Below, one piece after another: positions 3,610 to 21,228 of a stretch of 64,000 nt of DNA (position 1 is the stretch's first letter; each line of letters starts with the position of its first letter). The stretch is taken from assembly GCA_965247685.1 (NCBI GenBank), contig OZ252021.1, forward strand, positions 833,271 through 897,270, in the 5' to 3' direction. The translations under genes were made by a program, and so were the position numbers. The DNA comes from Bdellovibrionales bacterium (GTDB taxonomy: Bacteria > Bdellovibrionota > Bdellovibrionia > Bdellovibrionales > UBA1609). Under the pieces are notes generated by a model. It did not search any database. It was not told the DNA's origin and saw only the letters and a list, made by a program, of their open reading frames with translations.

Positions 3610-4181
3610 AGAGTAAAGTAAAGTTTACGAAATTTATTTAGATTGTGAAATCAGATCGATATTATTTAATCACAAACTCTTCTCTAATCATCGATTTCCC
3701 AAATAGATATAACAACAGATCATTCCTCTCTCTTTCAAGTCTGTCAAATATTTACACTTCACACTTTTATCTTTAAAAATTTAGTGTTTTTTTGTACTGT
3801 TGGTGTGAGTCAAATAAATATATTTTAATTGGAAGTAGCGACCTATTTCTTGGAGTGAATATGAATTTGAGAATATCAATGAGATACTTTGTGAGTTTAA
3901 GTTTAGAAAAATAGAAAAGCATCTTGGAATAAACAAAAAGAAGTGAAGACAGGTTTTAGTGAAGTTAAGTAATTTCTCTTTCTTTTGTAGTGTAAGCGTA
4001 AAAAATATAAAAACAAAATCCAATAAAGAGGAGAAACTTTAATCCTTTTACTGCTTTTTTAAAAAGAAGATAAAGAAAGTTGAGTATTTGCAGTTTGCAT
4101 CTCTATGTAGCACATTTCTTCATACCACGGATACATGAATAGCCCATCTCAACATTTGTTTTTTGTATTCTCAAATTAAGT

Positions 4182-5120: not shown

Positions 5121-5770
5121 TTCTCTTCTCCTTCTTTATCTTTACCTTTATTCTTATCTTTCTGATCTAAAACTGTCATTTGTATTCCTATTTTTTGTGC
5201 TTTTTTGAAAAACCTACTCACACTTCTATTTTGAAGTGCCTCTGTTTTTGGACTAATCACCAATATTTGATAGATGTGATCTGAAAAATAAAGCAGTCTT
5301 TCTTTAAAGAAGACAAGTTGTGTAACATTTCTTTTATAAGAGCCAGTGATATTCAATTCAATAAATTTTTTTCTCTTCTTTAAACTGTGTTGATCGGCTT
5401 TCCAAGTTCCGATATTGAAGAGCATAAGATCTTCTTGTTTTAGTTGAACAAATTTTTCGAAAAAATCATCGGACTGTAATTCTTTCCAATCAACTTTTTT
5501 ATCTTTTTTTTGGAGATAAAGAGTGCCAATAACTTTAGGATTGTCTTTTAATTTGTAAGTTGAAACTCCATCGGCGACACGAACTCCTGACCATTGAGAA
5601 CCCATATCATGGATAGGAAGAGGAGCAGGAGCTAGCTCTAACTCTATTTTTTCTGTTTCTTTAGGAGATTGCTCTTTATTAGAAGTGTTATTTTTTTTTG
5701 AAAAGGCAGTTCCACTAATAAAAAGAGTTAATAAAATAAAAAATTTCATAAGGTAAATTATACGATACAT
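5117..5770 (-). CDS. Secreted hypothetical protein (cassette copy A)
   Basis: 217 aa with a signal peptide. 4-nt overlap with the downstream gene. Differs at 2 residues from 8106..8759. Confidence 0.6.
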   Translation of the reverse strand: MYRIIYLMKFFILLTLFISGTAFSKKNNTSNKEQSPKETEKIELELAPAPLPIHDMGSQWSGVRVADGVSTYKLKDNPKVIGTLYLQKKDKKVDWKELQSDDFFEKFVQLKQEDLMLFNIGTWKADQHSLKKRKKFIELNITGSYKRNVTQLVFFKERLLYFSDHIYQILVISPKTEALQNRSVSRFFKKAQKIGIQMTVLDQKDKNKGKDKEGEEK

Positions 5771-6135
5771 TGACGACAGTTATCAATGAAAGACTATTTA
5801 TTAAGTTGATGTTCCTAGACTTTATTCTACTTAACAAACGATTGATATAGCAATGCCGATCTATGGAAGGGAAATTTTAACAGAGCCATAAATAAAATAG
5901 AAAAATTTGCTGAAGAAAGAGATTGGAGTAAATGGCTTAACTAGTGATATGGACAAATAACTCAAAGCACACAGTTCTAAATTCGTCCAGTTGCCCCCGC
6001 CATTCTCTCGCATCAGTGACACCAACAAATAAATCGAATGGTTTTTTATAGAGATATTCGACACTTCTATTTATGACTTGAGATGAAAATTTATTAATTT
6101 TTTTAATAAATATTCGATATAGAAATGTACTTGAT

Positions 6136-6171
6136 GTTTTGATTGCACCACAATTTCCTATATGATAAAAT
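6136..6171 (+). repeat. Solo CRISPR repeat (35/36 match to array repeat)
   Basis: gttttgattgcacCacaatttcctatatgataaaat, same orientation as the array, with one substitution. It retains the TGaTAAAAT extended -10. Confidence 0.85.
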
Positions 6172-6177
6172 CACCAT

Positions 6178-6250
6178 ATAGAGGCACGCGAGCTGGGTCT
6201 CTATCTTTCATGGGTGCAAGAAGGTAGTGAGTTTTTCACCTTCTTTTTTA
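6178..6250 (+). ncRNA. Candidate small RNA driven by the solo-repeat promoter
   Basis: Starts about 7 nt after the repeat's TAAAAT. Contains an unusually GC-rich stem region (atagag-gcacgcgagctgggt-ctctat). Ends in a hairpin (agaaggt...accttct) plus a T-run at 6219-6249. No plus-strand CDS lies upstream that this terminator could serve. Confidence 0.3.
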
Positions 6251-6272
6251 TTATAAATTATTTAAAAATAAA

Positions 6273-7122: not shown

Positions 7123-8109
7123 TTAAGGCTTATTTGCTTCCCATTGCCTAATACGCTCTCGCTTTCTTTCAAGTTTATTTGCTTCATGTTCTTTGATTTT
7201 GTCTATCATCCTTTGCTTAACACGCTCTCGCACTCTTTTATCGGAGCCTGTAAGTAGAACTGTCATTGATCCAATGACTGTCACAGGTGTCGTAAAAATT
7301 CTTCCGAATTTCGAGAGCTTATTTCTAAGAGGTGCACCATATTTGGAAAATATTAATCCCACTCCAAGGGCTGTTCCCGCCACCCCTCCAGCTATTCTCG
7401 AATCCTCGTCGTCAGTCATAAGTTCCGTTATTTCGGAGCCAATCTGGTACCCAATAAATCCTGCTCCTGTTAGGAACATCGTGAATGCGGCGGCCCCTCT
7501 CACGCGAGCCAAGACTGCTGTTGTCATGCCCACTAGAGGAACTCCTATCACATAGTGACATGCCATGTTTACCAACCCAACGTCGTTTAAACAAGAATTC
7601 ACATCACGCAGTGCATCGAAGTAGAGCTGCAGAACAGGACGTACTGCTTCAATAGAGGCCTCGAATGTTCCGGCATCTTGACTGGCATTTTCAAACTCTG
7701 CATGAAAATAAGACTTGATAGTTGAATTTTCTTTATCCACTAAAAACTCTTTTGTTAGTTTATAAGTAGATACGAGATAATCTAACAACCCGTCAAACAT
7801 CCCTAAGCCACAACCTTTGATTCCGTCAAAGACTTCGTCTGAACTACAACCTTTAAGAAATTCCTTTTTCTCCCCTTTGCATTCAGGTCTTTTTTGCATC
7901 TTTTTGCAAAGCAAGTCATCAGTTGAAAATTCTATCAAGTCTCTTTCTCCTAAGTTGCTACTGAGTGGTGTTTTTTGAGGGCAATTTTGAGTAGTACAAG
8001 GACTTCCAGCTTCTGTATCAGATTCATCAGGATCATAGGAAAAACTAGATTCAGCGCTTAAAAGAAATAAACTTAATAGCACTACCTTTAAACTATTTTT
8101 TGTATTCAT
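7123..8109 (-). CDS. Secreted Cys-containing protein with C-terminal Gly-rich hydrophobic helices (cassette copy B)
   Basis: 328 aa. The first ~64 aa match copy A except one residue (G/E in the signal peptide). The central STYKLTKE..ENSTIKSYFHAEFENASQDAGT block is near-identical (one substitution). The membrane half is strongly diverged. The tail carries an extra ERKRERIRQWEANKP unit. Confidence 0.6.
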   Translation of the reverse strand: MNTKNSLKVVLLSLFLLSAESSFSYDPDESDTEAGSPCTTQNCPQKTPLSSNLGERDLIEFSTDDLLCKKMQKRPECKGEKKEFLKGCSSDEVFDGIKGCGLGMFDGLLDYLVSTYKLTKEFLVDKENSTIKSYFHAEFENASQDAGTFEASIEAVRPVLQLYFDALRDVNSCLNDVGLVNMACHYVIGVPLVGMTTAVLARVRGAAAFTMFLTGAGFIGYQIGSEITELMTDDEDSRIAGGVAGTALGVGLIFSKYGAPLRNKLSKFGRIFTTPVTVIGSMTVLLTGSDKRVRERVKQRMIDKIKEHEANKLERKRERIRQWEANKP

Positions 8110-8759
8110 TTCTCTTCTCCTTCTTTATCTTTACCTTTATTCTTATCTTTCTGATCTAAAACTGTCATTTGTATTCCTATTTTTTGTGCTTTTTTGAAAA
8201 ACCTACTCACACTTCTATTTTGAAGTGCCTCTGTTTTTGGACTAATCACCAATATTTGATAGATGTGATTTGAAAAATAAAGCAGTCTTTCTTTAAAGAA
8301 GACAAGTTGTGTAACATTTCTTTTATAAGAGCCAGTGATATTCAATTCAATAAATTTTTTTCTCTTCTTTAAACTGTGTTGATCGGCTTTCCAAGATCCG
8401 ATATTGAAGAGCATAAGATCTTCTTGTTTTAGTTGAACAAATTTTTCAAAAAAATCATCGGACTGTAATTCTTTCCAATCAACTTTTTTATCTTTTTTTT
8501 GGAGATAAAGAGTGCCAATAACTTTAGGATTGTCTTTTAATTTGTAAGTTGAAACTCCATCGGCGACACGAACTCCTGACCATTGAGAACCCATATCATG
8601 GATAGGAAGAGGAGCAGGAGCTAGCTCTAACTCTATTTTTTCTGTTTCTTTAGGAGATTGCTCTTTATTAGAAGTGTTATTTTTTTTTGAAAAGGCAGTC
8701 CCACTAATAAAAAGAGTTAATAAAATAAAAAATTTCATAAGGTAAATTATACGATACAT
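8106..8759 (-). CDS. Secreted hypothetical protein (cassette copy B)
   Basis: 217 aa, near-identical to 5117..5770. 4-nt overlap with 7123..8109. Confidence 0.6.
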   Translation of the reverse strand: MYRIIYLMKFFILLTLFISGTAFSKKNNTSNKEQSPKETEKIELELAPAPLPIHDMGSQWSGVRVADGVSTYKLKDNPKVIGTLYLQKKDKKVDWKELQSDDFFEKFVQLKQEDLMLFNIGSWKADQHSLKKRKKFIELNITGSYKRNVTQLVFFKERLLYFSNHIYQILVISPKTEALQNRSVSRFFKKAQKIGIQMTVLDQKDKNKGKDKEGEEK

Positions 8760-8897
8760 TGACGACAGTTATCAATGAAAGACTATTTATTAAGTTGATG
8801 TTCCTAGACCTTATCACCTCTAATACATCTTAATGTTTGTTTTATTTGTATAAATAATACTACAATTGATGATAAAGTATCTGGGGAATCAAATCAT

Positions 8898-9398
8898 ATG
8901 AAATTTAACAATCATGCTTTAGTATTTATTATCCTTACCCTTATCGCATCACTCACCAGTTGTTCTTCTTCTTCTCGAAAGACAAAAACAGATAACAATA
9001 GAGAATACTTGGACGGATACCTTCTTGCAACTCCTGATGATCCACCACCCAGTAAACAAGGTCCCTCTAACAACATCTATTATGGTCGATTTAAAACTTG
9101 CACTGCATACTCTGAACTCTCTAGATCTCAATTACCATTAATGGCACGATTAACACTTCCTTTGTTAGGAAAGTTGCAAGATCTAACTACGGTTGATTGC
9201 AAAACAGCTCACACCTGTGACTGCTATAAGAATGAACACTTGGTGGTAGAAAGCTCTTTTGAGCCACCCCTTTATAGGTGTGTGGAATCTTCCTCTGCCC
9301 AAGTAGAAAATGAGGAAATATACAAACCAAATGAGAGTTTCTCAGGAGACGGTGTTATAAAGTTTGCTCTTCCTCGATCGGTTTGTAATAAGAATTAA
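8898..9398 (+). CDS. Putative lipoprotein
   Basis: 166 aa with lipobox-like LTSCSSSS after a hydrophobic N-terminus. Cys-rich mature part. Confidence 0.55.
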   Translation: MKFNNHALVFIILTLIASLTSCSSSSRKTKTDNNREYLDGYLLATPDDPPPSKQGPSNNIYYGRFKTCTAYSELSRSQLPLMARLTLPLLGKLQDLTTVDCKTAHTCDCYKNEHLVVESSFEPPLYRCVESSSAQVENEEIYKPNESFSGDGVIKFALPRSVCNKN

Positions 9399-9432
9399 AT
9401 GCACTAATATAATGAGTGTTCTATTGTACTAA

Positions 9433-9537
9433 GATTTCAATTCTTCTTGAGAGACAAAATGCTAATCTTATGAATAAAACTGTTAGTAACAGGCAATACG
9501 ATAGAATTCAAAAAATTGACTGTAACTATATAGATCC
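9433..9537 (+). other. Second copy of the CRISPR leader
   Basis: About 105 nt aligning to 12549-12651, nearly identical from 'atgaataaaactgttagtaacaggcaatacgatagaattcaaaaaattgactgtaactata' onward. It directly abuts a repeat. Confidence 0.7.
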
Positions 9538-9573
9538 GTTTTGATTGCACTACAATTTCCTATATGATAAAAT
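9538..9573 (+). repeat. Solo CRISPR repeat (36/36) attached to the leader copy
   Basis: Perfect gttttgattgcactacaatttcctatatgataaaat with no second repeat after it. Confidence 0.9.
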
Positions 9574-9628
9574 CTATATCAAAACCAAGCTAACAAACAA
9601 AATAAATTTCAATTTGTAAGTAGTTTAA

Positions 9629-9982
9629 TTACTTCTCACATTGAAACTCATAATTATGAGTTGGGTTGTAGCCCATAATCCATAAAAAAGGAATCCAAAA
9701 AAATAGTCCGCCAATTAAAGCTCCAACACTTAACCGTTCAGTTCGACTGAACATTACAGATTGGCTTTGACAGCCTGCTTTTCTCAAATTAACAGATGTT
9801 GTAGAACCCACTACTTTAGTATCAGAGTGCAAAACCTCACCTGTACCTTGATATTGACCATCGACATACACTTTGACGTTGCGGTCAATATTGCCATTCC
9901 TATCTACTACACGAATAGATGTGGTGCTAGCACAAGATATTAAAGAGCTTGCTACACAAATAGAAATGATACGAAAAAACAT
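9629..9982 (-). CDS. Putative lipoprotein (PEGA-like beta domain plus C-terminal hydrophobic segment)
   Basis: 117 aa. Lipobox SLISC, a VKVYVDGQYQGTGEV motif, and a C-terminal GALIGGLFFWIPFLWIMG segment. Confidence 0.5.
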   Translation of the reverse strand: MFFRIISICVASSLISCASTTSIRVVDRNGNIDRNVKVYVDGQYQGTGEVLHSDTKVVGSTTSVNLRKAGCQSQSVMFSRTERLSVGALIGGLFFWIPFLWIMGYNPTHNYEFQCEK

Positions 9983-10259
9983 AAAAACCCCCTTGGAATA
10001 GTTTATAGCATCCTACTGAGATGATTTAACATAGTCAATAATCAAAAGAAAAATAAATGAAGAAGTGTTCATTTTAATCAAATTTATTACAAACTAAGGC
10101 TAAACCTGCAACCATAAGTAATGCCAATTCAAAGAACTCGCTATTTTTTTAAGGGTGTTCTTATGGAAGACATAGCTGAAAGACATCAAAATGTCTTTCA
10201 GGTTATTTTATACCGAGCACATGGGTAACACTTTCGCTCTAAAGGGATGATCTTACTTG

Positions 10260-11108
10260 TTAAAAGTTTATCTTTTTAACAATATCTTTTGTTGTTTGAA
10301 CATAGTATGAAAAATTTTGATTAAGACCTTTTACTGTAGATTGTACTTCTTGCCATCCTATTTCCTGTGATGTCAGAAAATCATCACTATTCAAACAAGA
10401 ATCAATCAATGAAAGAGGTACATTTTTTGCTTCAAATACCTTTACGATATGTTTGGACAGCTCTTTAAAAAAATCATTAATTTTTCCTTCATCAAGAACT
10501 TTTGTATAAATTTGTTCTATATCATAAAAGTCACGAGCCCTATTGTTATGTGTGCTTCGATACTTATAATCAGGATGAGATTGACATATAGCTCGAAGTT
10601 TTTCCAGAATAAGTAAAGCCTTGGAATAAACTTTTATTTCAATGGACTTTACTCTAATTATTTCGAAACTTTCACTGTATTCCATTTCACTGATATCAAT
10701 TGGAATTTTATTTGTTAACAAACCTTCCGGAATAATAGCGGAGGCGGATTTTTGATAGACTTTGTTGTTCTTTAGTTATGAGTTTAAATTCAATAGCCCA
10801 TCCACTCAAGGAGTCAGAACTCCAGTCTGTCTTATTATAGGTTTACGAATTGGTTTGAAATCGATAACATATAGTTTATTTTTTAAAAATTCTTTACGTA
10901 TTGCTGATTCAAGATAATTAAAAAAATTATTTTCTTTCTCAATTTTTTCAGGAAAAGAAAAATCAGAATCTCTGGATAATCGAGATTTTAAATTATGTAC
11001 AAATCTTAGAGCTTGTCCTCCTTTTAAATACATCTTTCCACTTAAGATATCATGTGAATAAATGGCTACAAGAATTTTCCAAACAACCTCTTCAGCGGTT
11101 ATCATCAA
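10260..11108 (-). pseudogene. AbiEii/AbiGii-family nucleotidyltransferase toxin gene with two in-frame stops
   Basis: ORFs 10806..11108 and 10260..10721 are in the same frame. They are separated by TGA (10806-10808) and TAA (10776-10778). The N-terminal part has the KGGQALRF..RLSRDSDFSF NTase-like motif. The restored length of about 280 codons fits the family. Confidence 0.6.
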
Positions 11109-11961
11109 TCACTCCTTTGGGATAATGAATTTTCCATTTTGAATCATAAGACCAATTTTTATTAAAATTTTTATCTAAATAAAATGTTATTTTAGGAGAA
11201 GAAAAATAATTTAACCATTTTTTGCTGATATGAGGTTCCTTTAATCTGGAAAGTAGGAAACCTATAGACTGCCAGTAAGGATAAAAAGGGGAATAAGCTT
11301 CATAAACTTTATAGAGTTTGTTAATGTTTATGCGAGCTTTAGCAAAAGCATTTATAAGAGTTTTAATTCCACCACTATAATGGGGGCTGATTAGAGAATC
11401 GATAAGTGTTCTTTCCAGTGATGTAAAAAATATTTTAACTTGTCTTGTTTTATCTATTTTCAGTAATTTATTTTTAACTCCTATTTTACCTAAGTCTTGT
11501 TTTTCTAATAATGTAATTTTAGTTTTTTGATACATAAAGTATTTAGATGTTTTTCTTGGGGATTTAAGGAAGGCTTGATGTATTTTTGCTGAAATCTTTT
11601 CCTTTGAATGAGTAGGAATTCTTCCAACAATCTCTTTGGATAAAAAATATTCTTCTGGCCTATGATTTGTTAATTCATTTAAGTATAAAGCTGAAAAATG
11701 ACTAAGGTAATATCTTGGATGAAAAGCTGTTAATATATCAATAATTTGGATCTTATTTAAATTAAAAGTTAAGAGCTTATAATCTGCTGTTGCATTCCAA
11801 ACTACAGGGACTTCTGTTACAGCTCTTAGAATACGTGTTTTTTCTTGATCTGTAATACGTTTGTTTTTATGCATTTTTTGAAGTAGTTTTTCCAATGTTA
11901 TCTCAGGAAAAACCATAGGTAATTTTGAAGAAAGTTCTGTTTTAAATTTTGCAATGGACAT
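11092..11961 (-). CDS. AbiEi-family antitoxin / transcriptional regulator
   Basis: 289 aa. Overlaps the downstream toxin gene by 17 nt. LSHFSALYLNELT and TSLERTLIDSL..P.YSGG motifs resemble AbiEi proteins. Confidence 0.6.
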   Translation of the reverse strand: MSIAKFKTELSSKLPMVFPEITLEKLLQKMHKNKRITDQEKTRILRAVTEVPVVWNATADYKLLTFNLNKIQIIDILTAFHPRYYLSHFSALYLNELTNHRPEEYFLSKEIVGRIPTHSKEKISAKIHQAFLKSPRKTSKYFMYQKTKITLLEKQDLGKIGVKNKLLKIDKTRQVKIFFTSLERTLIDSLISPHYSGGIKTLINAFAKARININKLYKVYEAYSPFYPYWQSIGFLLSRLKEPHISKKWLNYFSSPKITFYLDKNFNKNWSYDSKWKIHYPKGVIDDNR

Positions 11962-11983: not shown

Positions 11984-12011
11984 GTATCATGTGTATATAT
12001 ACACATGATAC
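11984..12011. promoter_or_regulatory. Perfect 28-bp palindrome upstream of abiEi (candidate operator)
   Basis: gtatcatgtgtatatatacacatgatac, located 23 nt upstream of the abiEi start codon. Confidence 0.5.
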
Positions 12012-12171
12012 TTCTAATTTTAAGATAAGTCAAGAGAAAAAATGGTAATTTATTAGTTTACATAATTCTTAGTTTCTCCTACAATTTGAAGGGATTTTAA
12101 AGGGAAACTTCGGTTACTATAGGTTGTAAGCGGTTACCAACAGGATGAATAGGTGGTATTTTGTTTAATTT

Positions 12172-12326
12172 TGAAGTTATTTTAGAGTTTTGAAACCCTT
12201 ACCTTCTATCCCGTCCACCCCACAGATTTCTTCAAGAAGTGTAGAAAAAATATTTGGAACCTTTTGAACTTCATCTAAAACAACCTTCTTTGATAATCCT
12301 TTTACAAACCCAATAGGATCTTCTTT
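12172..12326 (-). pseudogene. Relic fragment of an AAA_14/DUF4143-type ATPase gene
   Basis: The minus-strand frame reads KEDPIGFVKGLSKKVVLDEVQKVPNIFSTLLEEI. This is a Walker-B-like VVLDEVQ..P context typical of that family. It is bounded by stops after about 50 codons. Confidence 0.25.
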
Positions 12327-12548
12327 GCTGTTTTAGTCACTACATCATCTTTAGCTATTCTGTTTGCCGTACTTAGCAGTGAGTTTAAGTTTAGAAAAAT
12401 AAAAAAGCATCTTGGAATAAACAAAAAGAAGTGAAGACAGGTTTTAGTGAAGTTAATTAAAGATTTTCTATCAGGATATGGAAGGGAGATTTTAACAGAG
12501 GCCATAAATAAAATAGAAAAATTTACTGGAGAAAGAGATTGGAGTAAG

Positions 12549-12651
12549 GATTTCAATTCTTATTGAGAGATAAAATGATATATATGAATAAAACTGTTAG
12601 TAACAGGCAATACGATAGAATTCAAAAAATTGACTGTAACTATATGGATCT
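12549..12651 (+). other. CRISPR leader (cas-distal end of array)
   Basis: 103-nt AT-rich sequence abutting repeat 1. It is conserved in a second copy at 9433-9537. Confidence 0.6.
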
Positions 12652-14270
12652 GTTTTGATTGCACTACAATTTCCTATATGATAAAATAAAGATATCAGCT
12701 CATCAAAAAAGCGGGTAGTTTTGATTGCACTACAATTTCCTATATGATAAAATGGTAAAACAATTTATAAGTATGCAAATGGTGTTTTGATTGCACTACA
12801 ATTTCCTATATGATAAAATGGGCTTGTTAAGCACTATTAATAGGTATATGTTTTGATTGCACTACAATTTCCTATATGATAAAATAGGTTGCGTTGAAAG
12901 TCTGTTTTGAAGGGCGTTTTGATTGCACTACAATTTCCTATATGATAAAATTGTTATATTATAGTTAAGTAAATAAATCTAGTTTTGATTGCACTACAAT
13001 TTCCTATATGATAAAATATAAATCTTGAACAATTCACTAAGATAATAGTTTTGATTGCACTACAATTTCCTATATGATAAAATTCTTCTTTTGTACTTTC
13101 TATTTTTGTAAGTGTTTTGATTGCACTACAATTTCCTATATGATAAAATTTAAAAGAAATAAACAAGGAGCTGGAAGTGGTTTTGATTGCACTACAATTT
13201 CCTATATGATAAAATTATTCGGTCATATTGTGTAAAGAGATCATGGTTTTGATTGCACTACAATTTCCTATATGATAAAATAAAGAATATGATGAATGAG
13301 GTGGCCAGAAGGTTTTGATTGCACTACAATTTCCTATATGATAAAATATATTATAGTTAAATAAACAATTGTCTAGGGTTTTGATTGCACTACAATTTCC
13401 TATATGATAAAATTGGTTTACAATTGGTGTAAAAACCAGCTGGGTTTTGATTGCACTACAATTTCCTATATGATAAAATATCTATAGATCAATTAAATAA
13501 AAAAGTCTAGTTTTGATTGCACTACAATTTCCTATATGATAAAATTGAAAAGCCGTGGTTGTCCGATAAGACTAGGTTTTGATTGCACTACAATTTCCTA
13601 TATGATAAAATATTACAAGTTGATTCACAAGCTCGGACGATGTTTTGATTGCACTACAATTTCCTATATGATAAAATATTTATAGAAGATTACAATAATA
13701 AATATGCGTTTTGATTGCACTACAATTTCCTATATGATAAAATACCACTAGAATAAATATGGATTGGAACTCCGTTTTGATTGCACTACAATTTCCTATA
13801 TGATAAAATTCATTGTACTGGATGGAATGAATATAATGTGTTTTGATTGCACTACAATTTCCTATATGATAAAATTCCTCGGTTAAGGACCTCGCCTCGA
13901 TTTATGTTTTGATTGCACTACAATTTCCTATATGATAAAATAGTTACAGAAATTGTGGGTTTCACAACTCCGTTTTGATTGCACTACAATTTCCTATATG
14001 ATAAAATGGGTCTTCGTTCCACACACCACCTGCGTTGGTTTTGATTGCACTACAATTTCCTATATGATAAAATAAATGTAAAATTTGAGAATGGATGTGC
14101 TTAGTTTTGATTGCACTACAATTTCCTATATGATAAAATTGAAGTGGCCGGAACTATTAATATTGCTACGTTTTGATTGCACTACAATTTCCTATATGAT
14201 AAAATTTATAAATATGCAAACGGTAGGAAGCCTTGTTTTGATTGCACTACAATTTCCTATATGATAAAAT
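12652..14270 (+). CRISPR. CRISPR array: 25 x 36-bp repeats, 24 spacers (23 x 30 nt, last one 29 nt)
   Basis: The repeat gttttgattgcactacaatttcctatatgataaaat recurs every 66 bp (12652, 12718 ... 14170, 14235). All 25 copies look identical. The plus-strand crRNA sense is inferred from tracrRNA complementarity. Confidence 0.97.
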
Positions 14271-14312
14271 AAGCCATTTATAACTCCTTGAAATTACAGG
14301 AGTTATTGGCTT
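14271..14312. terminator. Hairpin between array end and cas2 stop
   Basis: aagcca-ttt-ataactcct...aggagttat-tggctt imperfect inverted repeat. It is T-rich on the minus-strand side, downstream of cas2. Confidence 0.45.
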
Positions 14313-14321
14313 ATTAAAAAC

Positions 14322-14654
14322 TCAAAATAGTAGCAACTGTTGTTTCTTCTTAGTTAATTTTTCATCATACTTTCCACGAAAACTCACAATATTACTAAAC
14401 TGCTTATCCGTCACAGCTAATAGATCAATTTTCCCATTTTGAGGCAGTTGGTAAGAAATTTTTTTAATGAGACTTTCCACCTTTTCTTTACTAGGGCATA
14501 CCTTAGAATAAACAGAATATTGAACCATCTGAAAACCAAGATCCAATAAACGATACCTAAATTTAGATGCCATTTTTCTCTCTTTTTTTGTTGTTACCGG
14601 TAAATCAAAAAAAGTAAATAACCACATAACTCTATAATGACCTAAATAACTCAT
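14322..14654 (-). CDS. cas2: CRISPR-associated endoribonuclease Cas2
   Basis: 110 aa. VMWLFTFFDLPVTTKKERK..FRYRLLDLGFQMVQYSVY is typical of type II Cas2. ATGA overlap with the cas1 stop. Confidence 0.92.
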   Translation of the reverse strand: MSYLGHYRVMWLFTFFDLPVTTKKERKMASKFRYRLLDLGFQMVQYSVYSKVCPSKEKVESLIKKISYQLPQNGKIDLLAVTDKQFSNIVSFRGKYDEKLTKKKQQLLLF

Positions 14655-15601
14655 GCCGAAGTTTTTATTTTCTTAGAATATAAAAAACTTAAATTAAAAT
14701 TTTGCCAATTTATCTTTAGATTAATATCCCATTTTTTCTTTTCCTTACACAATACTAACGCCAAGGCGGTGGACATTCGAGAAATAACTTGAAACAGTGG
14801 ACTTATTCCAGAGCATCCTTCAACATCCACAATCACAAGACCTGACAGTACCTGCTTCACTTCCTTATTCACATCACGATATGCTTGTGAGTATAACTGT
14901 CTTACAACATAATCTGCGATAGGTCTAAAAGGCTCTATTAAGTCATCTACCAAACACATAGGATTATACATATTTCTATGATGAATACCTATACTAGGAT
15001 GAAGCCCTGACACAATAACACCTCTTGCAACACAAGACCGTATAATAGCATAAGCATAATTTAACATCGCATTAATGCCATCTCCATTTTGATCTCTTTT
15101 AAATTTGTTGGAAAATAATCTCATCCAATAGACCCTAGCACCTTGAGCTTCTAAATTATTCAAATCTCCAGGTTGAACTAAATTGGACATATTGAATAAT
15201 TTTTTATAAGGCAAACCTAACTCCTTCAATACTAAAGATTGATTTTTTAACTTTAACTTTACCACTTCTTTCCACAATCTTTTTTGTAAAGATTGACTCA
15301 TATTAACCTGAGATTGAATCCTTATATTTTGTTTACAATTTCCAACTAACGGCAAAAGAATAGCTCTTGGTGAAAAATTGGATCCACATATAGAAACTGG
15401 AATCCCACGATCTGATAATTCCACTAAAATATTAGAAGAATAAATACAACCATAACCTGTAATAACAATACCTAAAATATCATCAAGAGAAACACGAGAT
15501 AATAAATTCTGTTTTTCTTTGATCTCTAAAAACCCTCTATATAAACTTAGACGAATATTAGGTCTCGAGATTTCAATAAACTGTCCAAAACTACTACTCA
15601 C
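14651..15601 (-). CDS. cas1: CRISPR-associated integrase Cas1
   Basis: 316 aa. LNYAYAIIRSCVARGVIVSGLHPSIGIHHRN and DLIEPFRP motifs. Positioned between cas9 and cas2. Confidence 0.93.
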   Translation of the reverse strand: MSSSFGQFIEISRPNIRLSLYRGFLEIKEKQNLLSRVSLDDILGIVITGYGCIYSSNILVELSDRGIPVSICGSNFSPRAILLPLVGNCKQNIRIQSQVNMSQSLQKRLWKEVVKLKLKNQSLVLKELGLPYKKLFNMSNLVQPGDLNNLEAQGARVYWMRLFSNKFKRDQNGDGINAMLNYAYAIIRSCVARGVIVSGLHPSIGIHHRNMYNPMCLVDDLIEPFRPIADYVVRQLYSQAYRDVNKEVKQVLSGLVIVDVEGCSGISPLFQVISRMSTALALVLCKEKKKWDINLKINWQNFNLSFLYSKKIKTSA

Positions 15602-15610
15602 AAACTCAAC

Positions 15611-18600
15611 CTAAGCACTATGTCTTTTAGATTCTTCTTTACCAACAATAAAATCAGTCAATTGAACCAAACCACAAGGGCTAATATTAACTCGTTTAGG
15701 ATTACATTTTTGTAGAGAAGATGGACTCTTTTGTGTGTACTTATATTGATCTGATCTACTTCTGTTTCTTGCATCTACATTCGCTTCAAAATGCTCTGAA
15801 AATGTTAGATTTTTATTTTGTGTAAATTTAACAAGCCTCCAGAATCGACCAGCAAAAAATAACATATCCCCTTTCATCAATCTTGCTTTGTCTGGAATAG
15901 GCTTAAAAGTCTTTTGATTAGCAGAAAATATACTTATAACTTGTGCATCCCATTTTCCGCTTGAGTTTTTAAACAGTTGAATTGCATAATTTCCATCCTC
16001 CTGAAAAAATTTGTAAATTTTTCCAAATTTATTTTCAATAGGTATCACTCGTTCCTTTCTATTTAAGCGAACCCTGCGAATACCTGTTTTTTGGTGATAA
16101 TTAATTAAAAATTCTTTAGAGAGGGTATTATTGACTTTTAATTCTTTTAAAAAATCTTGTTTCACCTTTTCACTAATGATTCGACTTTCTATTTTCTTTT
16201 TATCTGCTCCGTTTAAAGTCAAAATTTCAACATAATGGATCACATTAATTGGCTTGGAAAAAGTATTAACACTACCTAATACCCCGTAAGCTGTATCATT
16301 GTGGAGTTGACCTGCTTTTTTAGTTCTCCTTCTGTGAGATACAATAATTTGATCTATTACTCTCTTAGCATCTTCTTTAAAAGAAGGCCAAGGAATCACA
16401 TCTTGTGTTATCACTCTACCAATATTCTCCAGCCTCTCTTTACTCTTTCCTTCTATTCCCTTCGCAATATTACTAATCTGTTGAACTAAAGAACGATCAA
16501 CTAAACCTATCACAAGAGCATCTTTTGCATGATGTCTATGATCGTTCCTATTTTTTTTATCATACTGTAACAAAGATCTTAAAAGAAATGTAGTCTGTCC
16601 TTTAACACTCCACACATCTTTACAAACTCTTCCTAAATACTGAATAGCATATTTAGATATATAACGAGTATCATTCAACTGCCTTTCTAAAAAGTTTCCA
16701 TTTTCTTCAAATTTCTTCATAGCATCCTTGTTAAATTTCCATCGTTTTTGCTCAGATAACTCATTAACTCTCTGAAGAATTCCTGCCCATCGCACTTTAT
16801 CAGATGAAAAGGCTTCATAAGGAGTTTGGTTCCCTTTTTGTTGATTAAAAACTTTATAAACCAACACTTTATTCATAAAGCCGTCATCTAAAGTCTTAGA
16901 GTAGGGCAATATGTGATCAACTTCCAGCTCTGGACTAAGAAGTTTAGTTTCTGGAATCTTTTTACCAGAGTAAACACAGGTATTGTTTTGCTCTTTCCAA
17001 AGCTTATATCTGACACGATTCGTTTTATTGTTAATTCCTCCAAACTCATCAATAAATTTTTTCGCATCTTCATTTCTTTTTTTATTATCATTTATTTTCT
17101 TATCTGATTTTTTTTTAGTTTCTGAGCCCATTGGTAAATCTCTAGCTGTCTCTATCACCACCTCCATCGGTTTTCCATAGACACGAAGGATATCATTTAC
17201 CAATAGCCTTAATTGATTAAAAGCAATATGGACTGTAGGATTTGGAATTCTGAAGGACTCAAATTTATTATGTTTACTCTCTGCTGTTTCAGACAATTTC
17301 ATCTCCACACAATGGTCTCCTAAAACTTGCTGATAAAGAGGTAGCTTGTCTAACAACTCACCTTTATGTCTCCTATCTGAATGATGCCAGCCTGCTAACT
17401 TAATAGCTTCAATTTCCAATTCTCCCTTTTCAAGAAAAGGTATAATTTTGTGAATAACTTTTCTACTGTATTTCCCATGATCTTGTGGAAGATCGTTCAT
17501 GTTTTCCAAAACGTTATCCAAAATTTGATCAGAAATATTTAAATTATTTTCTCTACTAAACTTTTGTAAATCTTTTAAGACTTCCTCATCCTTTTTTATA
17601 AAGATATCTTCTTGGCTTTCACCCTCCAATAACTCGATAAATTGATCCTGAATATCTAAAGACCAACTTTGCCAATCAGGTATAAGGTTTGTCAAAACTA
17701 TACTAGTTTGCTCTCCCTCTAAATAATTCCTATCGTTAATATCTAAGTTAAAACGAGAAAAGTCTTCTACATCAGAGAAAAAATTTTTAAATTCTTTTTC
17801 TAAAGAAGAAAATGTAACTTTATTTTTCTTTTGAAATAGCTTTTCAATAACATAATTTCTAAACTCAATACCTTTATCCATATCCTTCAATAACACACTT
17901 TCACCCATCATATTTATATAAGATAAATTATTTAATTCTTTTAAAATCCTAAATTTTTGAAAAGAAGGCAATGCTCTACTAATTCGTTTCTCACTAGGGA
18001 GAAAATAACATTTTCCGACAATAGACTTCTTTAATTGCCTTTGATGAAAAATAGCCTTATGAAATAAAGCTTTCAACTTTTGATCTTTCAACTTATCGTA
18101 ATATTGAGACTGAGAGTCCCAGAGTTTATTAAATTCATTTTCAATCATAGACCTTTGAGCATAAACAACATAATTCTCCTTAGCTCCAGCACCTATTGGC
18201 TTTCTAGCTAATATCCAGTGTTCTTGTTGAGATCCTGGGTGTTTTCTACTTTCTTCCATCTTTTGAAAACGTTTCCATAAAAATTCACCATATGTTCTAG
18301 CTCCACATTTTTCTAGTTGCTCTTCTGAATTTTCTACAGATTTAGCAATAATCCCATCCTCTTTTCCACTTCCTGATTTCCTATTACTTTTAAAACCTCT
18401 TCTTTGATTTAAGTGAAATAAAGCTCTTCCAAAATGATAAATATTCAACTTTTCATCCAGCCCCTTGGTTCTTATTTCATATGGGTTTAAATTTTGTAAC
18501 TCTTTTAAAGAACATTGATCCTCCGGGAATAATCCATATTTTTTCAACAAATGAAGAAGATAAGCTCTTCTCTGTAAATAACGATCTCTTTGTCTTCTTT

Positions 18601-18838
18601 GCAGCCTTGCCTGCCTGCGAGTGGCATTTAAAGTTGTATAATCTTTGGAATTTCTACCAGAGGGAAAAATCCTCACCCCTGCTTCTGTAATCTCTTTAGG
18701 ACTGTTGTTTTTATCTAAATTATATAAAGCCCACCCTATAGAATTAGTTCCTATGTCTAAAGCAAGTCTTAAGTTATTTGGGGGTTGTTTTAAATCTTGA
18801 TTTAGATCTTTCAGTTTTAAAATTTTATCACCTGACAT
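15611..18838 (-). CDS. cas9: Cas9 (type II-C-sized, 1075 aa)
   Basis: RuvC-I LALDIGTNSIGWAL. Arg-rich bridge helix RRQARLQRRQRDRYLQRR. RuvC-II VVIETARDL. HNH EVDHILPYS...NKVLV...N. RuvC-III HHAKDALVIG. All catalytic residues are present. Confidence 0.95.
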   Translation of the reverse strand: MSGDKILKLKDLNQDLKQPPNNLRLALDIGTNSIGWALYNLDKNNSPKEITEAGVRIFPSGRNSKDYTTLNATRRQARLQRRQRDRYLQRRAYLLHLLKKYGLFPEDQCSLKELQNLNPYEIRTKGLDEKLNIYHFGRALFHLNQRRGFKSNRKSGSGKEDGIIAKSVENSEEQLEKCGARTYGEFLWKRFQKMEESRKHPGSQQEHWILARKPIGAGAKENYVVYAQRSMIENEFNKLWDSQSQYYDKLKDQKLKALFHKAIFHQRQLKKSIVGKCYFLPSEKRISRALPSFQKFRILKELNNLSYINMMGESVLLKDMDKGIEFRNYVIEKLFQKKNKVTFSSLEKEFKNFFSDVEDFSRFNLDINDRNYLEGEQTSIVLTNLIPDWQSWSLDIQDQFIELLEGESQEDIFIKKDEEVLKDLQKFSRENNLNISDQILDNVLENMNDLPQDHGKYSRKVIHKIIPFLEKGELEIEAIKLAGWHHSDRRHKGELLDKLPLYQQVLGDHCVEMKLSETAESKHNKFESFRIPNPTVHIAFNQLRLLVNDILRVYGKPMEVVIETARDLPMGSETKKKSDKKINDNKKRNEDAKKFIDEFGGINNKTNRVRYKLWKEQNNTCVYSGKKIPETKLLSPELEVDHILPYSKTLDDGFMNKVLVYKVFNQQKGNQTPYEAFSSDKVRWAGILQRVNELSEQKRWKFNKDAMKKFEENGNFLERQLNDTRYISKYAIQYLGRVCKDVWSVKGQTTFLLRSLLQYDKKNRNDHRHHAKDALVIGLVDRSLVQQISNIAKGIEGKSKERLENIGRVITQDVIPWPSFKEDAKRVIDQIIVSHRRRTKKAGQLHNDTAYGVLGSVNTFSKPINVIHYVEILTLNGADKKKIESRIISEKVKQDFLKELKVNNTLSKEFLINYHQKTGIRRVRLNRKERVIPIENKFGKIYKFFQEDGNYAIQLFKNSSGKWDAQVISIFSANQKTFKPIPDKARLMKGDMLFFAGRFWRLVKFTQNKNLTFSEHFEANVDARNRSRSDQYKYTQKSPSSLQKCNPKRVNISPCGLVQLTDFIVGKEESKRHSA

Positions 18839-19044
18839 AAAAAAAACTCCTTTATAAATATACAGTCACTTTGAAAGTAGTTTCGGATAAAATATTAAAA
18901 ACATTAGGAATAATTTTACTTTTTTAATAAAAAAATAAAATCTATTTCATAATGAAACATAAAAATAGAGTATGAAAAAAAATTATACAGTAAATAATCA
19001 AAAAAACATTTGATCATATTGATAAACTATGTTCTAATGATCAA

Positions 19045-19130
19045 CAATCATATAGGAAATTGTGGTACTCTCAATAACAAGCGAGTATTCGCACCAGTCT
19101 TAGGCGAAGGAAACTTCGCCTTTGTTTTTT
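19045..19130 (+). ncRNA. tracrRNA: tracrRNA
   Basis: Anti-repeat atcatataggaaattgtggtac (19047-19068) is complementary to repeat nt 10-31, with one G:U and one A:C. The tcaa at 19072-19075 can pair again with repeat nt 4-7 after an internal loop. Small hairpin gcga-gtat-tcgc. Terminator ggcgaagg-aaa-cttcgcc plus T-run (19103-19130). Promoter-like TTGATC-N17-TCTAAT at 19010-19038. Confidence 0.8.
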
Positions 19131-19346
19131 CTATATTAAAAAATAAATCTTTTAATATCTGCATAAAAAGCCCCTTTCCAAAAGATAGGTAATAAGAAGA
19201 AGACTGTACACCTTTTGCACATTCATATTTTTGAGATGGCTGATAATTCAATTGGTCTCTTCCAAGATAAACAGATTTTTTAATAAAAAACTGAATATTT
19301 GTATATACTTTAGAATTTTTCTATAAGATCAAATAAGACTTTTATG

Positions 19347-19382
19347 GTTTTGATTGTACTACAATTTCCCGTAGGTAAAACT
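19347..19382 (+). repeat. Degenerate solo CRISPR repeat next to the tracrRNA
   Basis: gttttgattgTactacaatttccCGtaGgTAaaaCt. The first 23 nt match the repeat except C11T; the 3' third has decayed and the embedded -10 is lost. Confidence 0.7.
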
Positions 19383-19587
19383 TATAGAATCAACAGCCTA
19401 TATACTTTTTTGAATTTTATCACTGATAGAAGTTGATCTGTTTTTGTCACAACTGATCATAACTAAAATTAAAAAAAAATCCCAAATGGAACGATAAAGT
19501 TTTTACTGATTTTGATTAAGAATTTCGTTTCTTATCTTCAGTATATATGCTTTCGTGAGGGTTGCTTAATACCTAAGATCTTAAGTA

Positions 19588-21228
19588 TTAAACTCTATTC
19601 AGTACACTATCGCATTCACGTTCTTGATATAAATCTTCAAGAGCTGCTACAGGCTCTTTTGCGTATGTCAGTAACTTACAAGCCTGAATAAGGTTATTTT
19701 CTTTTCTGTAATATAGATTACTTAATAAATATAAATACAAAGGATTCCTTAATTGAGCAAGTCCTTGAAACAGTTGATGAGCTTCTTTAAATTGCCGTGT
19801 CAAATAAAACTGATGACCCACAACAAATTGTGCTTCTAAATTACCTGCTTGAGCCGCTTCACGTATACGTATATCAAGTCTTTGAATATTTGTAATATTC
19901 TTTTGAACTAAAAACTTCAAAATATTTTTATCTACCTCATTTAGTTCTGGATTTGAACTGGACAATTTGTGGTAAGTATCGAGCAAATCATCTTTGTTTA
20001 CAGGGTTTAAAAAATTGGATAAAATCATATCATTATCTAAGTAAAATATAGCTCTCATCATCAAATCTTTTTTATTTTCTTCATCAGATAATAATTGATA
20101 GTAAAACAATGATTCTTGCTCTTTAATCAAGCTAGCTATACTCTCTTTACTTGTTTTCAAGGAAGACATAAAATTCTCGAAACCATTATTGATAGGAATT
20201 ACATTCAAGTGCCTACACTCTGATGAAGGATGGATAGAGGAGGTAATTCCAATAATTTTCCCATCCTGATTTAAAGCAGGGCTTCCGCTGATTCCAATTA
20301 AAGTCTTACAAGAAGTCATATTATGAGAAACCATAAAAGAAGTGTATAAGGAATTTATTGAAAATGCGTTTGTAGCTTTTATTTTTTGTAAACCCCATTT
20401 TGTAGGGTAACCTAAAATATAATTTGGAACTTCATTCAAGTAATCATCCGCTAAACTTAAAGTAGACCCTGTATAATTTTCCACCTCCAAAACAGCTAGA
20501 TCCATCAAAAGAGACAAATCTCTAACACCTGTGATAAGAAACTTTTGATCTCCTTGCTCAACATAAAAAGGAGTATTAGATGTCTTCTTAAACCAATCTT
20601 GATCAGGAATATTCATTTGAATTAAAAGCCATAGAATGCTTCCAAAAATATGATAATTAGTAACAAATATTGGTTGTTTATTAGAGTCTTTAATGAAGAA
20701 TCCAGATCCGATACCTTCGCTTCTTGTATCAACATCTTCTCTAAATTGCACAATAACTCGTCCAACTCCACTTTGAGTTTTCTCCAGCCATTGTGGAAAG
20801 ATTAATTCTTCTTGGTGATTAGTTTTATCAACTGAGCTAGTTTCTTCTTGCGAAGAAAAATCTTCTGGAGACTCTTCTTTAGGATCGATACAAAACTCTG
20901 AATATCTTCCATTTGAGTGTAATTCTATAAAACAGTCTTTGATATAGGGAGACTGTGTGCTCAACATTTCTAAAGCATTGTTCCGAGGATCAGAGTTATC
21001 TCCTCTTATCTCTATCGAACAGTTTTTAGAATAACCTGTTAATACTTTCTCAATAGAGCATTCTTTTGTATATTCTTGTAATAGAAAAGTTTCCGAGGAA
21101 TTCACTTCCACGATTTCCCCTCCCACTAACTTTTTTTTCCCTTTCAAAGGATCTAAAAGAATCTTGGAGTCATCTGCATAAAGATGAAAGGAAGTCAAAA
21201 ACAACAAAAGACAAATTAAATTTTTCAT
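19588..21228 (-). CDS. Secreted trypsin-like serine protease with C-terminal Sel1/TPR-like repeats
   Basis: 546 aa with a signal peptide. Catalytic-triad contexts VTNYHIF (His), DLAVLEV (Asp) and GISGSPAL (Ser). C-terminal AAQAGNLEAQFVVGHQFY is Sel1-like. Confidence 0.8.
   Translation of the reverse strand: MKNLICLLLFLTSFHLYADDSKILLDPLKGKKKLVGGEIVEVNSSETFLLQEYTKECSIEKVLTGYSKNCSIEIRGDNSDPRNNALEMLSTQSPYIKDCFIELHSNGRYSEFCIDPKEESPEDFSSQEETSSVDKTNHQEELIFPQWLEKTQSGVGRVIVQFREDVDTRSEGIGSGFFIKDSNKQPIFVTNYHIFGSILWLLIQMNIPDQDWFKKTSNTPFYVEQGDQKFLITGVRDLSLLMDLAVLEVENYTGSTLSLADDYLNEVPNYILGYPTKWGLQKIKATNAFSINSLYTSFMVSHNMTSCKTLIGISGSPALNQDGKIIGITSSIHPSSECRHLNVIPINNGFENFMSSLKTSKESIASLIKEQESLFYYQLLSDEENKKDLMMRAIFYLDNDMILSNFLNPVNKDDLLDTYHKLSSSNPELNEVDKNILKFLVQKNITNIQRLDIRIREAAQAGNLEAQFVVGHQFYLTRQFKEAHQLFQGLAQLRNPLYLYLLSNLYYRKENNLIQACKLLTYAKEPVAALEDLYQERECDSVLNRV

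What the first reader, a model, noticed from the sequence alone, without database searches (positions are those of the whole stretch)
12652..14270. Each CRISPR repeat contains a whole promoter; the array is read toward cas2, convergent with the cas operon
tracrRNA complementarity fixes the crRNA sense as the plus strand, which is opposite to cas9-cas1-cas2. In that sense every repeat ends with TGaTAAAAT (an extended -10) and has TTGCAC exactly 17 nt upstream. Transcription would then start a few nt into each following spacer. The same arrangement is established for Neisseria meningitidis and Campylobacter jejuni type II-C arrays, where crRNA 5' ends are primary and RNase III-independent; the C. 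jejuni repeat ends in ..TGGTAAAAT. Any solo repeat elsewhere would therefore be a potential outward-firing promoter.
Basis: partly seen in the sequence, partly recalled or inferred. Interest (0 to 1): 0.6.

Follow-up and report, generated by a model that had tools for sequence, protein, structure and literature searches.

The report
Promoter inside every type II-C repeat
This is a 25-repeat type II-C CRISPR array from a Bdellovibrio-like bacterium in which every repeat ends in a promoter-like box, as already shown in Neisseria and Campylobacter, so it is a sound but ordinary new example and not a new mechanism.

Summary
Window 12652-14270 holds 25 identical 36-nt repeats, GTTTTGATTGCACTACAATTTCCTATATGATAAAAT. 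Each ends in TGATAAAAT and has TTGCAC exactly 17 nt upstream.

The plus-strand sense is confirmed. A tracrRNA lies at about 19047-19130(+). It is conserved in 12 related loci, each with a terminator; most relatives have a clear TTGACA-type promoter. In the 11 loci that have an array, 14 of its pairs with the repeat show compensatory changes.

All 11 distinct repeats of this Cas9 family end in TGnTAnnnT, and the variable bases are the ones a -10 box tolerates. Among 43 more distant type II-C repeats, 40 end in TAnnnT at the same position. The last five bases do not pair with tracrRNA in the family consensus, and clearly not in this window. The oldest repeat is mutated at its 5' end in 6 of 11 loci but always keeps its 3' box.

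Promoters inside repeats were shown experimentally in N. meningitidis and C. jejuni, and recent papers treat them as general for type II-C. This is therefore a new member of a known kind. Promoter activity here was not tested.

Caveats: the "-35" matches the consensus at only 3 of 6 positions. It also lies in the crRNA handle, which is constrained for other reasons.

Extras: there are two intact solo repeats (6136, 9538) and one degenerate repeat (19347). Flank-plus-repeat modules are duplicated, and a conserved hairpin sits between the array and cas2.

The parts
12652..14270 (+). CRISPR array: 25 identical 36-nt repeats and 24 spacers (23 of 30 nt, one of 29 nt). The crRNA sense is the + strand.
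12659..12664 (+). TTGCAC, the -35-like hexamer of the first repeat (repeat positions 8-13). It recurs every 66 nt. It matches the consensus at 3 of 6 positions and lies in the bulge/lower-stem part of the crRNA handle.
12679..12687 (+). TGATAAAAT, the extended -10 box of the first repeat (repeat positions 28-36). It recurs in every repeat. The predicted start is about 7 nt downstream, at spacer nt 6-8.
   Evidence: start site inferred by analogy
12538..12651 (+). Cas-distal flank of the array ('c' segment). It is duplicated together with a repeat at 9423-9573. No conserved promoter was found here, and the flanks of relatives are unrelated to each other.
14271..14312 (.). Hairpin in the cas2-proximal leader (inner stem 14280-14306). 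It is conserved in all 11 family loci, 9-13 nt past the last repeat. It is a likely terminator or insulator between the convergent array and cas operon.
14322..14654 (-). cas2
   Evidence: TIGR01573
14651..15601 (-). cas1 (NMENI / type II subtype)
   Evidence: TIGR03639
15611..18838 (-). cas9, 1075 aa
   Evidence: TIGR01865
19047..19130 (+). tracrRNA: anti-repeat 19047-19078, small hairpin 19081-19092, terminator 19102-19121 followed by a T run.
19347..19382 (+). Degenerate repeat copy (7 mismatches). The 5' 23 nt that pair with tracrRNA are nearly intact, but the TG and the final T of the -10 are lost.
9538..9573 (+). Exact solo repeat, preceded by a copy of the array's upstream flank (9423-9537).
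6136..6171 (+). Solo repeat with one mismatch (T14C). Its promoter box is intact.
6218..6254 (+). Hairpin plus T run, 47 nt downstream of the solo repeat at 6136. It would end a repeat-initiated RNA of about 75 nt.

Best explanation
This is a canonical type II-C CRISPR-Cas locus (cas9-cas1-cas2, tracrRNA, array) of a Bdellovibrionales-like bacterium. The array is transcribed on the + strand, antisense to the cas operon. Transcription does not come from one leader promoter. It starts at a sigma-70-type extended -10 promoter (TGATAAAAT) that forms the last nine bases of every repeat. RNA polymerase is expected to start about 7 nt into each following spacer, giving primary (5'-triphosphate) transcripts with roughly 23-24 nt of guide. 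The downstream repeat pairs with tracrRNA over positions 1-31, and RNase III would cut the duplex to set the 3' end. Shown here: the motif and its spacing, the strand, the repeat:tracrRNA pairing with covariation, conservation of the box across relatives, and retention of the box in decayed first repeats. Inferred by analogy: promoter activity, the exact start sites, and independence from RNase III.
For: The locus is type II-C: Cas9, Cas1 (NMENI) and Cas2 only. The strand is set by tracrRNA on + with its terminator. That tracrRNA is conserved in 12 loci. Relatives have TTGACA-type promoters, which also shows that this lineage uses the sigma-70 consensus. Fourteen of 32 predicted pairs carry compensatory changes, and in the consensus fold repeat positions 32-36 lie outside the duplex; in this window complementarity clearly ends after position 31. 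All 11 family repeats end in TGnTAnnnT. T31, A32, A35, T36 and T28-G29 are invariant, while positions 30, 33 and 34 vary. Across 54 distinct II-C repeats, T31 is present in 53, A32 in 54 and T36 in 52, while position 33 carries 0.10 bit. The cas-distal first repeat is mutated at position 1 or 2 in 6 of 11 loci, yet its 3' 22 nt are always intact; the last repeat is always perfect. This matches the published II-C pattern. Cas-distal flanks are unrelated between loci, so there is no conserved leader promoter. Experimental precedent exists for C. jejuni and N. meningitidis. C. cellulolyticum has the same terminal nine-base box. A 2025 survey states that in II-C each repeat has its own promoter.
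Against: There are no RNA data for this organism, so no start site was observed. The -35-like TTGCAC matches at only 3 of 6 positions, and its invariance can be explained by the crRNA handle. The genome is AT-rich (34% GC) and promoter-like hits are common: 61 were found against 39.9 expected in 12000-19700, and the repeats supply 25 of the 61. The scanner prefers a different pair in the repeat, TTGATT-16-TATGAT, which is not conserved. The TAnnnT end is also the leader-proximal end of the repeat, where Cas1-Cas2 integrates new spacers in II-C. Part of its conservation could therefore reflect the integrase rather than RNA polymerase. The attempt to confirm orientation independently from a PAM failed because no protospacers were found.
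Confidence: 0.8

Rival explanations
1. The array is transcribed as one long pre-crRNA from a promoter in the cas-distal flank. The TAnnnT repeat end is conserved for another reason, such as recognition of the leader-proximal repeat end by the Cas1-Cas2 integrase, and has little promoter activity.
For: In II-C, spacers enter at the cas2-proximal repeat, so the TAAAAT end abuts the leader. Conservation alone cannot separate the two constraints. The window's first repeat is intact and has a 152-nt conserved flank-plus-repeat module.
Against: The conserved and variable positions match a -10 hexamer plus TG closely. Cas-distal flanks share no sequence or promoter between 11 loci. No good promoter lies within about 300 nt upstream of the array. 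Decayed first repeats keep the 3' box even though they are never integration sites. Direct experiments in two II-C systems show that these boxes fire.
Confidence: 0.12
2. The promoter resemblance is a chance feature of an AT-rich repeat.
For: The genome is 34% GC. Shuffled sequence gives about 40 promoter-like hits per 7.7 kb. The 25 copies are identical, so they are not independent.
Against: TGnTAnnnT sits at exactly the last nine bases in 11 of 11 divergent family repeats, and TAnnnT at that position in 40 of 43 distant II-C repeats. It occurs essentially nowhere else in the repeat.
Confidence: 0.03
3. crRNAs come from the - strand, co-transcribed with cas9-cas1-cas2 by read-through.
For: The array lies directly downstream of cas2 on that strand.
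Against: tracrRNA has its own terminator on the + strand, and in relatives a clear TTGACA-type promoter too. It is complementary to the + strand repeat, with compensatory changes. A - strand crRNA would be identical in sense to the anti-repeat and could not pair with it. A conserved hairpin separates cas2 from the array. Repeat decay at the cas-distal end fits + sense polarity.
Confidence: 0.02

Closest known systems
Neisseria meningitidis type II-C array (Zhang et al. 2013, as summarised in PMC5965381)
   Same: It has a cas9-cas1-cas2 operon and 36-nt repeats starting GTT and ending in an extended -10 (TGCTACAAT from my own recollection, not checked in a paper; several distant metagenomic II-C repeats end the same way). 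Transcription starts within spacers, giving 5'-PPP crRNAs, and RNase III is dispensable.
   Different: Here the box is TGATAAAAT, and a TTG lies 17 nt upstream. By my recollection the Neisseria repeat has no -35-like element. The host is a Bdellovibrionales-like bacterium. Nothing has been tested experimentally here.
Campylobacter jejuni NCTC11168 minimal type II-C array (Dugar et al. 2013, PMC3656092)
   Same: The repeat ends in GGTAAAAT, which the authors read as an extended -10. Primary transcripts start inside each spacer, and tracrRNA plus RNase III make the 3' end. The box is nearly identical to the TGGTAAAAT of five family members here.
   Different: The rest of the repeat sequence and the tracrRNA differ. 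The position of the C. jejuni tracrRNA was not checked in the papers read; here it lies upstream of cas9, antisense to it.
Clostridium cellulolyticum H10 type II-C (Fedorova et al. 2020, PMC7038990)
   Same: The array is transcribed opposite to the cas genes, and the terminal nine repeat bases resemble an extended -10. As here, this was inferred rather than proven.
   Different: That system has small-RNA sequencing from a heterologous host, showing 23-26 nt guides.
Extra-repeat / ecrRNA framework for type II-C (Feussner et al. 2025, PMC12080349)
   Same: The first, cas-distal repeat is the oldest. It is mutated in about 60% of systems, mostly within the first 15 nt, and must keep its promoter. 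Here 6 of 11 family loci show exactly this pattern.
   Different: The first repeat in this window is unmutated. I did not establish which of the three proposed counter-measures applies, if any.
scaRNA of Francisella novicida type II-B (concept as in PMC6199352)
   Same: The degenerate repeat at 19347 lies outside the array and next to tracrRNA. It keeps the part that pairs with tracrRNA.
   Different: No promoter, convincing terminator or target match was found in the window. The element is not conserved in most relatives. It is more likely a relic.

Membership tests
Type II-C CRISPR-Cas | Effector is Cas9, with cas1 and cas2 as the only other cas genes (no csn2, no cas4) | tested here: met
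   TIGR01865 Cas9, TIGR03639 Cas1 (NMENI) and TIGR01573 Cas2. Searches show no further ORF within the operon. Flanking ORFs have no cas domains.
Type II-C CRISPR-Cas | tracrRNA with an anti-repeat complementary to the repeat | tested here: met
   the anti-repeat is at 19047-19078, and 14 pairs show compensatory change across 11 loci.
Type II-C CRISPR-Cas | Array transcribed opposite to the cas operon, with new spacers added at the cas-proximal end | tested here: met
   Orientation comes from the tracrRNA strand. Polarity comes from decay of the cas-distal repeat only. Acquisition itself cannot be tested here.
Repeat-embedded-promoter arrays (Nme/Cje type) | Extended -10 (TGnTAnnnT) formed by the last nine bases of the repeat in crRNA sense | tested here: met
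   TGATAAAAT at repeat positions 28-36 in all 25 repeats.
Repeat-embedded-promoter arrays (Nme/Cje type) | The box is conserved among related systems while neighbouring repeat positions vary | tested here: met
   11 of 11 family repeats and 40 of 43 distant repeats. Positions 30, 33 and 34 are variable.
Repeat-embedded-promoter arrays (Nme/Cje type) | Primary (5'-triphosphate) crRNA 5' ends that map inside each spacer | not testable with these tools
   This needs dRNA-seq or 5' RACE on the organism, or metatranscriptome reads.
Repeat-embedded-promoter arrays (Nme/Cje type) | crRNA production and function independent of RNase III and of a leader promoter | not testable with these tools
   This needs genetics. 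The only indirect evidence is the absence of a conserved cas-distal promoter.
Complete sigma-70 promoter (-35 plus -10) within the repeat | A -35 hexamer close to TTGACA, 16-18 nt upstream of the -10 | tested here: inconclusive
   TTGCAC at 17 nt matches at 3 of 6 positions, which is below the scanner's threshold. The TTG is invariant in the family but lies in the invariant crRNA handle GTTTTGATTGC.
scaRNA-like element (degenerate repeat at 19347) | Own promoter, terminator and a guide segment matching a host target | tested here: not met
   there is only a weak 5-bp AT hairpin followed after a few bases by a T run, and no seed match of 12 nt or more elsewhere in the window. The rest of the genome was not available.

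The most novel reading that the evidence does not exclude
The intact solo repeats may be more than debris. On this reading, copies at 6136 and 9538, and equivalents in 8 of 11 related loci, act as portable outward-firing promoters. The 6136 copy plus the + strand hairpin and T run at 6218-6254 would form a complete repeat-driven small-RNA gene of about 75 nt. The duplicated flank-plus-repeat modules would serve as recombination handles through which cassettes are inserted or excised. In the window these modules bracket a 3.1-kb AbiE block. In L085 they bracket the whole array, cas operon and tracrRNA (7.4 kb).
Probability: 0.1. Interest if true: 0.55.

Novelty: new member of a known kind. Interest (0 to 1): 0.22.

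Why it matters
The finding extends a well-documented type II-C feature, one promoter per repeat, to a family of Bdellovibrionales-like predatory bacteria. The 54-repeat comparison suggests the terminal TAnnnT box is close to universal among the type II-C loci sampled here. Two practical points follow. Guide length and array orientation can be predicted for these Cas9 orthologues, with about 23-24 nt of guide and + sense. Any relocated repeat also carries a potential promoter, which matters here because solo repeats are frequent around these loci. None of this changes current understanding of type II-C biology.

Tried and rejected
1. I tried to test orientation independently through a PAM. BLAST of the whole array against 50,697 phage records gave only chance-level hits. 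Exact scans of IMG/VR with spacers 22 and 23 gave nothing. A degenerate core shared by spacers 2 and 24 gave 12 contigs that match only the 19-nt core (13-17 mismatches in the flanks). A local BLAST of 259 family spacers against all fetched loci found only tandem duplicates within arrays.

2. The scanner's alternative promoter in the repeat, TTGATT-16-TATGAT, was rejected as the conserved element. Relatives have AGTGGT or similar at that -10 position.

3. The scaRNA reading of the degenerate repeat at 19347 found no convincing promoter or terminator and no target in the window. The element is also not conserved.

4. An exact look-up of the window's Cas9 to name the source record found nothing. 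The organism is placed only through its nearest Cas9 relatives, which are Bdellovibrionales MAGs.

5. The sequences downstream of the two solo repeats and the array's upstream flank (a-b-c) have no match in any fetched locus, so their conservation could not be assessed.

6. Zhang et al. 2013 itself is not in the held library. Its content is cited through reviews and later papers.

Full report
**What is in the sequence.** Window 12652-14270 holds 25 exact copies of the 36-nt repeat GTTTTGATTGCACTACAATTTCCTATATGATAAAAT on the + strand. They are separated by 23 spacers of 30 nt and one of 29 nt. Within the repeat, TTGCAC occupies positions 8-13, TG positions 28-29 and TAAAAT positions 31-36. Directly beyond the array, on the - strand, lie cas2 (14322-14654), cas1 (14651-15601, NMENI type) and cas9 (15611-18838, 1075 aa). 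There is no csn2 or cas4, so this is a type II-C locus. The nearest Cas9 relatives (51-67% identity) come from Bdellovibrionales metagenome-assembled genomes. The window is 34% GC and also carries a bacterial 16S rRNA gene.

**Which strand is the crRNA.** The only strong complement of the repeat outside the array lies at 19047-19078 on the + strand, 209 nt upstream of the cas9 start codon. It is followed by a small hairpin and an intrinsic terminator (19102-19121 plus a T run), also on the + strand. I fetched eleven related loci: ten with arrays and one with cas9 only. In all twelve loci the same element sits upstream of cas9 on the strand antisense to cas9, with its own terminator. In the relatives it also has a clear TTGACA-16/18-TAnnnT promoter. 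That promoter doubles as an internal control showing that this lineage uses sigma-70-type promoters. I joined each locus's repeat to its own tracrRNA and folded the alignment. This gave a duplex over repeat positions 1-7, 10 and 12-31, and 14 of the 32 predicted pairs keep pairing through changes on both sides. The crRNA sense is therefore the + strand.

**Is the promoter-like box more than chance?** The 25 repeats are identical, so within the window this is a single observation in an AT-rich genome. Shuffled sequence gives about 40 promoter-like hits in 7.7 kb. The weight comes from comparison.
- The 11 distinct repeats of the family all start GTTTTGATTGC and all end in TGnTAnnnT. The endings are TGATAAAAT, TGGTAAAAT, TGGTAATAT, TGGTATCAT and TGATATAAT.
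- T28, G29, T31, A32, A35 and T36 are invariant, while positions 30, 33 and 34 vary.
- In 43 further distinct repeats from more distant type II-C loci (32-36% Cas9 identity, metagenomes), 40 end in TAnnnT at exactly positions 31-36 in the sense antisense to cas9. The motif is almost absent at every other offset and on the other strand.
- Over all 54 repeats, T31 is present in 53, A32 in 54 and T36 in 52, while position 33 carries 0.10 bit. This is the profile of a -10 hexamer.
- In the family consensus fold, positions 32-36 lie outside the tracrRNA duplex. In this window complementarity clearly ends after position 31, so pairing does not explain their conservation here. In at least one relative (L001) the sequence upstream of the anti-repeat could extend pairing further, depending on where that tracrRNA starts.

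**Evidence from decayed repeats.** In 6 of the 11 family loci the first (cas-distal) repeat is mutated at position 1 or 2. In L003 the mutations run through the first 13 nt. Its 3' 22 nt, including the box, are always intact, and the cas2-proximal last repeat is always perfect. This is the pattern reported for type II-C in a survey of 357 systems: the extra repeat is mutated in 60% of arrays, mostly within the first 15 nt. The authors note that this repeat must keep its promoter to express the first spacer. The cas-distal flanks of the 11 loci share no sequence with each other. No good promoter match lies within about 300 nt upstream of the array in the window. This argues against a conserved leader promoter on that side.

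**How it most likely works.** RNA polymerase holoenzyme would recognise the TGnTAAAAT at the end of each repeat and start about 7 nt into the next spacer. The transcript runs into the next repeat, which pairs with tracrRNA, and RNase III trims the 3' side. The result is a guide of about 23-24 nt with a primary 5' end. Only the sequence features and their conservation are shown here. Promoter activity, start sites and RNase III independence are inferred from precedent. In C. jejuni, TEX-enriched starts lie within each spacer and the repeat ends in GGTAAAAT. In N. meningitidis, crRNAs carry 5'-PPP ends from repeat promoters and processing is dispensable. I put the probability that these repeats have promoter activity at about 0.8.

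**What weakens or qualifies the claim.**
- 'A whole promoter' is generous. TTGCAC shares only TTG with TTGACA, which is below the scanner's threshold. It also lies inside the invariant crRNA handle, where the bulge and lower stem are constrained by Cas9 and tracrRNA. Extended -10 promoters do not need a -35.
- The scanner's own pick in each repeat, TTGATT-16-TATGAT, is not conserved in relatives.
- The TAnnnT end is the leader-proximal end of the repeat, where type II-C integrates new spacers. Integrase recognition could therefore contribute to its conservation. I cannot separate the two constraints with sequence alone.
- An independent orientation test through PAMs failed because no protospacer was found.

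**Convergent transcription.** A hairpin lies 9-13 nt past the last repeat in all 11 loci (window 14271-14312). Five of its eight consensus pairs show compensatory change. In most relatives a T run follows it on the crRNA strand. In the window that tail is weak on the + strand. On the - strand the hairpin is followed by ATTTTAT, which is the reverse complement of the last repeat's -10. It probably insulates the array and the cas operon from each other. The transcript from the last repeat, which has no downstream repeat, would end there or run antisense into cas2.

**Comparison with what is known.** The arrangement is the one established for N. meningitidis and C. jejuni. It has been proposed for C. 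cellulolyticum from the same terminal nine bases. Recent work treats it as a general property of type II-C. The locus meets every sequence-level criterion for membership; the two RNA-level criteria cannot be tested here. The small differences are the TTG 17 nt upstream and the host lineage. This is a new member of a known kind, and a specialist would not be surprised.

**Other things seen.**
- An exact repeat sits at 9538-9573 and a one-mismatch copy at 6136-6171. Both are on the + strand with the box intact.
- A degenerate copy at 19347-19382 lies 220 nt past the tracrRNA terminator. It keeps the tracrRNA-pairing half but has lost the TG and the final T.
- The 9538 copy carries 115 nt of the array's upstream flank (9423-9573 matches 12538-12687 at 92%). 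Other pieces of that flank recur at 3891-3972 and 5862-5931, interleaved with a duplicated 1.65-kb two-gene block.
- A decayed AbiE toxin-antitoxin pair lies between the 9538 copy and the array.
- Solo or degenerate repeats occur in 8 of 11 family loci. Flank-plus-repeat duplication recurs in L090 and in L085, where the two copies bracket the whole array, cas operon and tracrRNA.
- The 6136 copy is followed on the + strand by a hairpin and T run at 6218-6254, with no ORF. This would delimit an RNA of about 75 nt if the repeat fires.

The simplest reading is that these are relics of array splitting and recombination. Whether any of them is a live promoter or a recombination handle is open, and I give that about a 10% chance.

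**Verdict.** The mechanism is already known, so interest is low to moderate.

Noticed in passing
window 9538-9573 and 6136-6171 (+): There are two intact solo CRISPR repeats (one exact, one with a single mismatch) 3.1 and 6.5 kb upstream of the array. Both are in array orientation with the TGATAAAAT box intact. The genes downstream of them are on the opposite strand.
   Followed up: partly
window 9423-9573 vs 12538-12687; 5862-5931 vs 12477-12547; 3891-3972 vs 12379-12460; 4187-5825 vs 7173-8814: The array's cas-distal flank recurs in three separated pieces upstream, in the same order and orientation. The pieces are interleaved with a duplicated 1.65-kb two-gene block of unknown function. How this mosaic arose is unexplained.
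   Followed up: partly
window 6172-6254 (+): The solo repeat at 6136 is followed by two hairpins. The second (6218-6245) is followed by a T run, and there is no + strand ORF. If the repeat is a live promoter, this forms an orphan promoter-terminator unit of about 75 nt.
   Followed up: partly
window 19347-19382 (+): A degenerate repeat lies 220 nt past the tracrRNA terminator. Its tracrRNA-pairing half is nearly intact, but its promoter box is destroyed. Together with the array it brackets the cas operon. Copies of the repeat beyond tracrRNA also exist in L085 (1 mismatch, with the array's flank) and L003 (9 mismatches).
   Followed up: partly
window 14271-14312; the equivalent position in L001-L003, L084-L088, L090 and L091: A conserved hairpin lies 9-13 nt past the last repeat in the cas2-proximal leader, with compensatory changes in 5 of 8 pairs. 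It is probably a terminator between the convergent units, though a role in spacer integration is not excluded.
   Followed up: yes
window 19074->19047 (-): The antisense strand of the tracrRNA anti-repeat reads TTGAGA-16-TATGAT, a 10 of 12 promoter match pointing toward cas9. It may be only a by-product of repeat complementarity.
   Followed up: no
window 10260-11961 (-): An AbiE-type toxin-antitoxin pair lies between the solo repeat and the array. The AbiEii toxin is split into 153-aa and 100-aa ORFs, probably by a frameshift. An intact 289-aa AbiEii gene sits near the array in L002.
   Followed up: partly
L089 (crRNA-sense coordinate 1180; cas9 8001-11240): This related locus has cas9 and tracrRNA but no cas1, cas2 or array within 8 kb. 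Its only repeat is a divergent solo copy ending in TGATAAACT, followed directly by a hairpin and T run.
   Followed up: no
L003, L084, L086, L087, L088, L090 arrays: Identical spacers are repeated in tandem or nearby within the arrays (up to three copies in L087). This suggests frequent repeat-mediated duplication.
   Followed up: no
window 69-3609 and 21337-22350: There are several ankyrin-repeat genes with 99-nt tandem periodicity, and segmental duplications among them.
   Followed up: no
window spacers at 12754-12783 and 14206-14234; 12952-12981, 13348-13377 and 13480-13509: Different spacers overlap the same target regions with small offsets and a few mismatches. This implies repeated acquisition from related invaders.
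   Followed up: no
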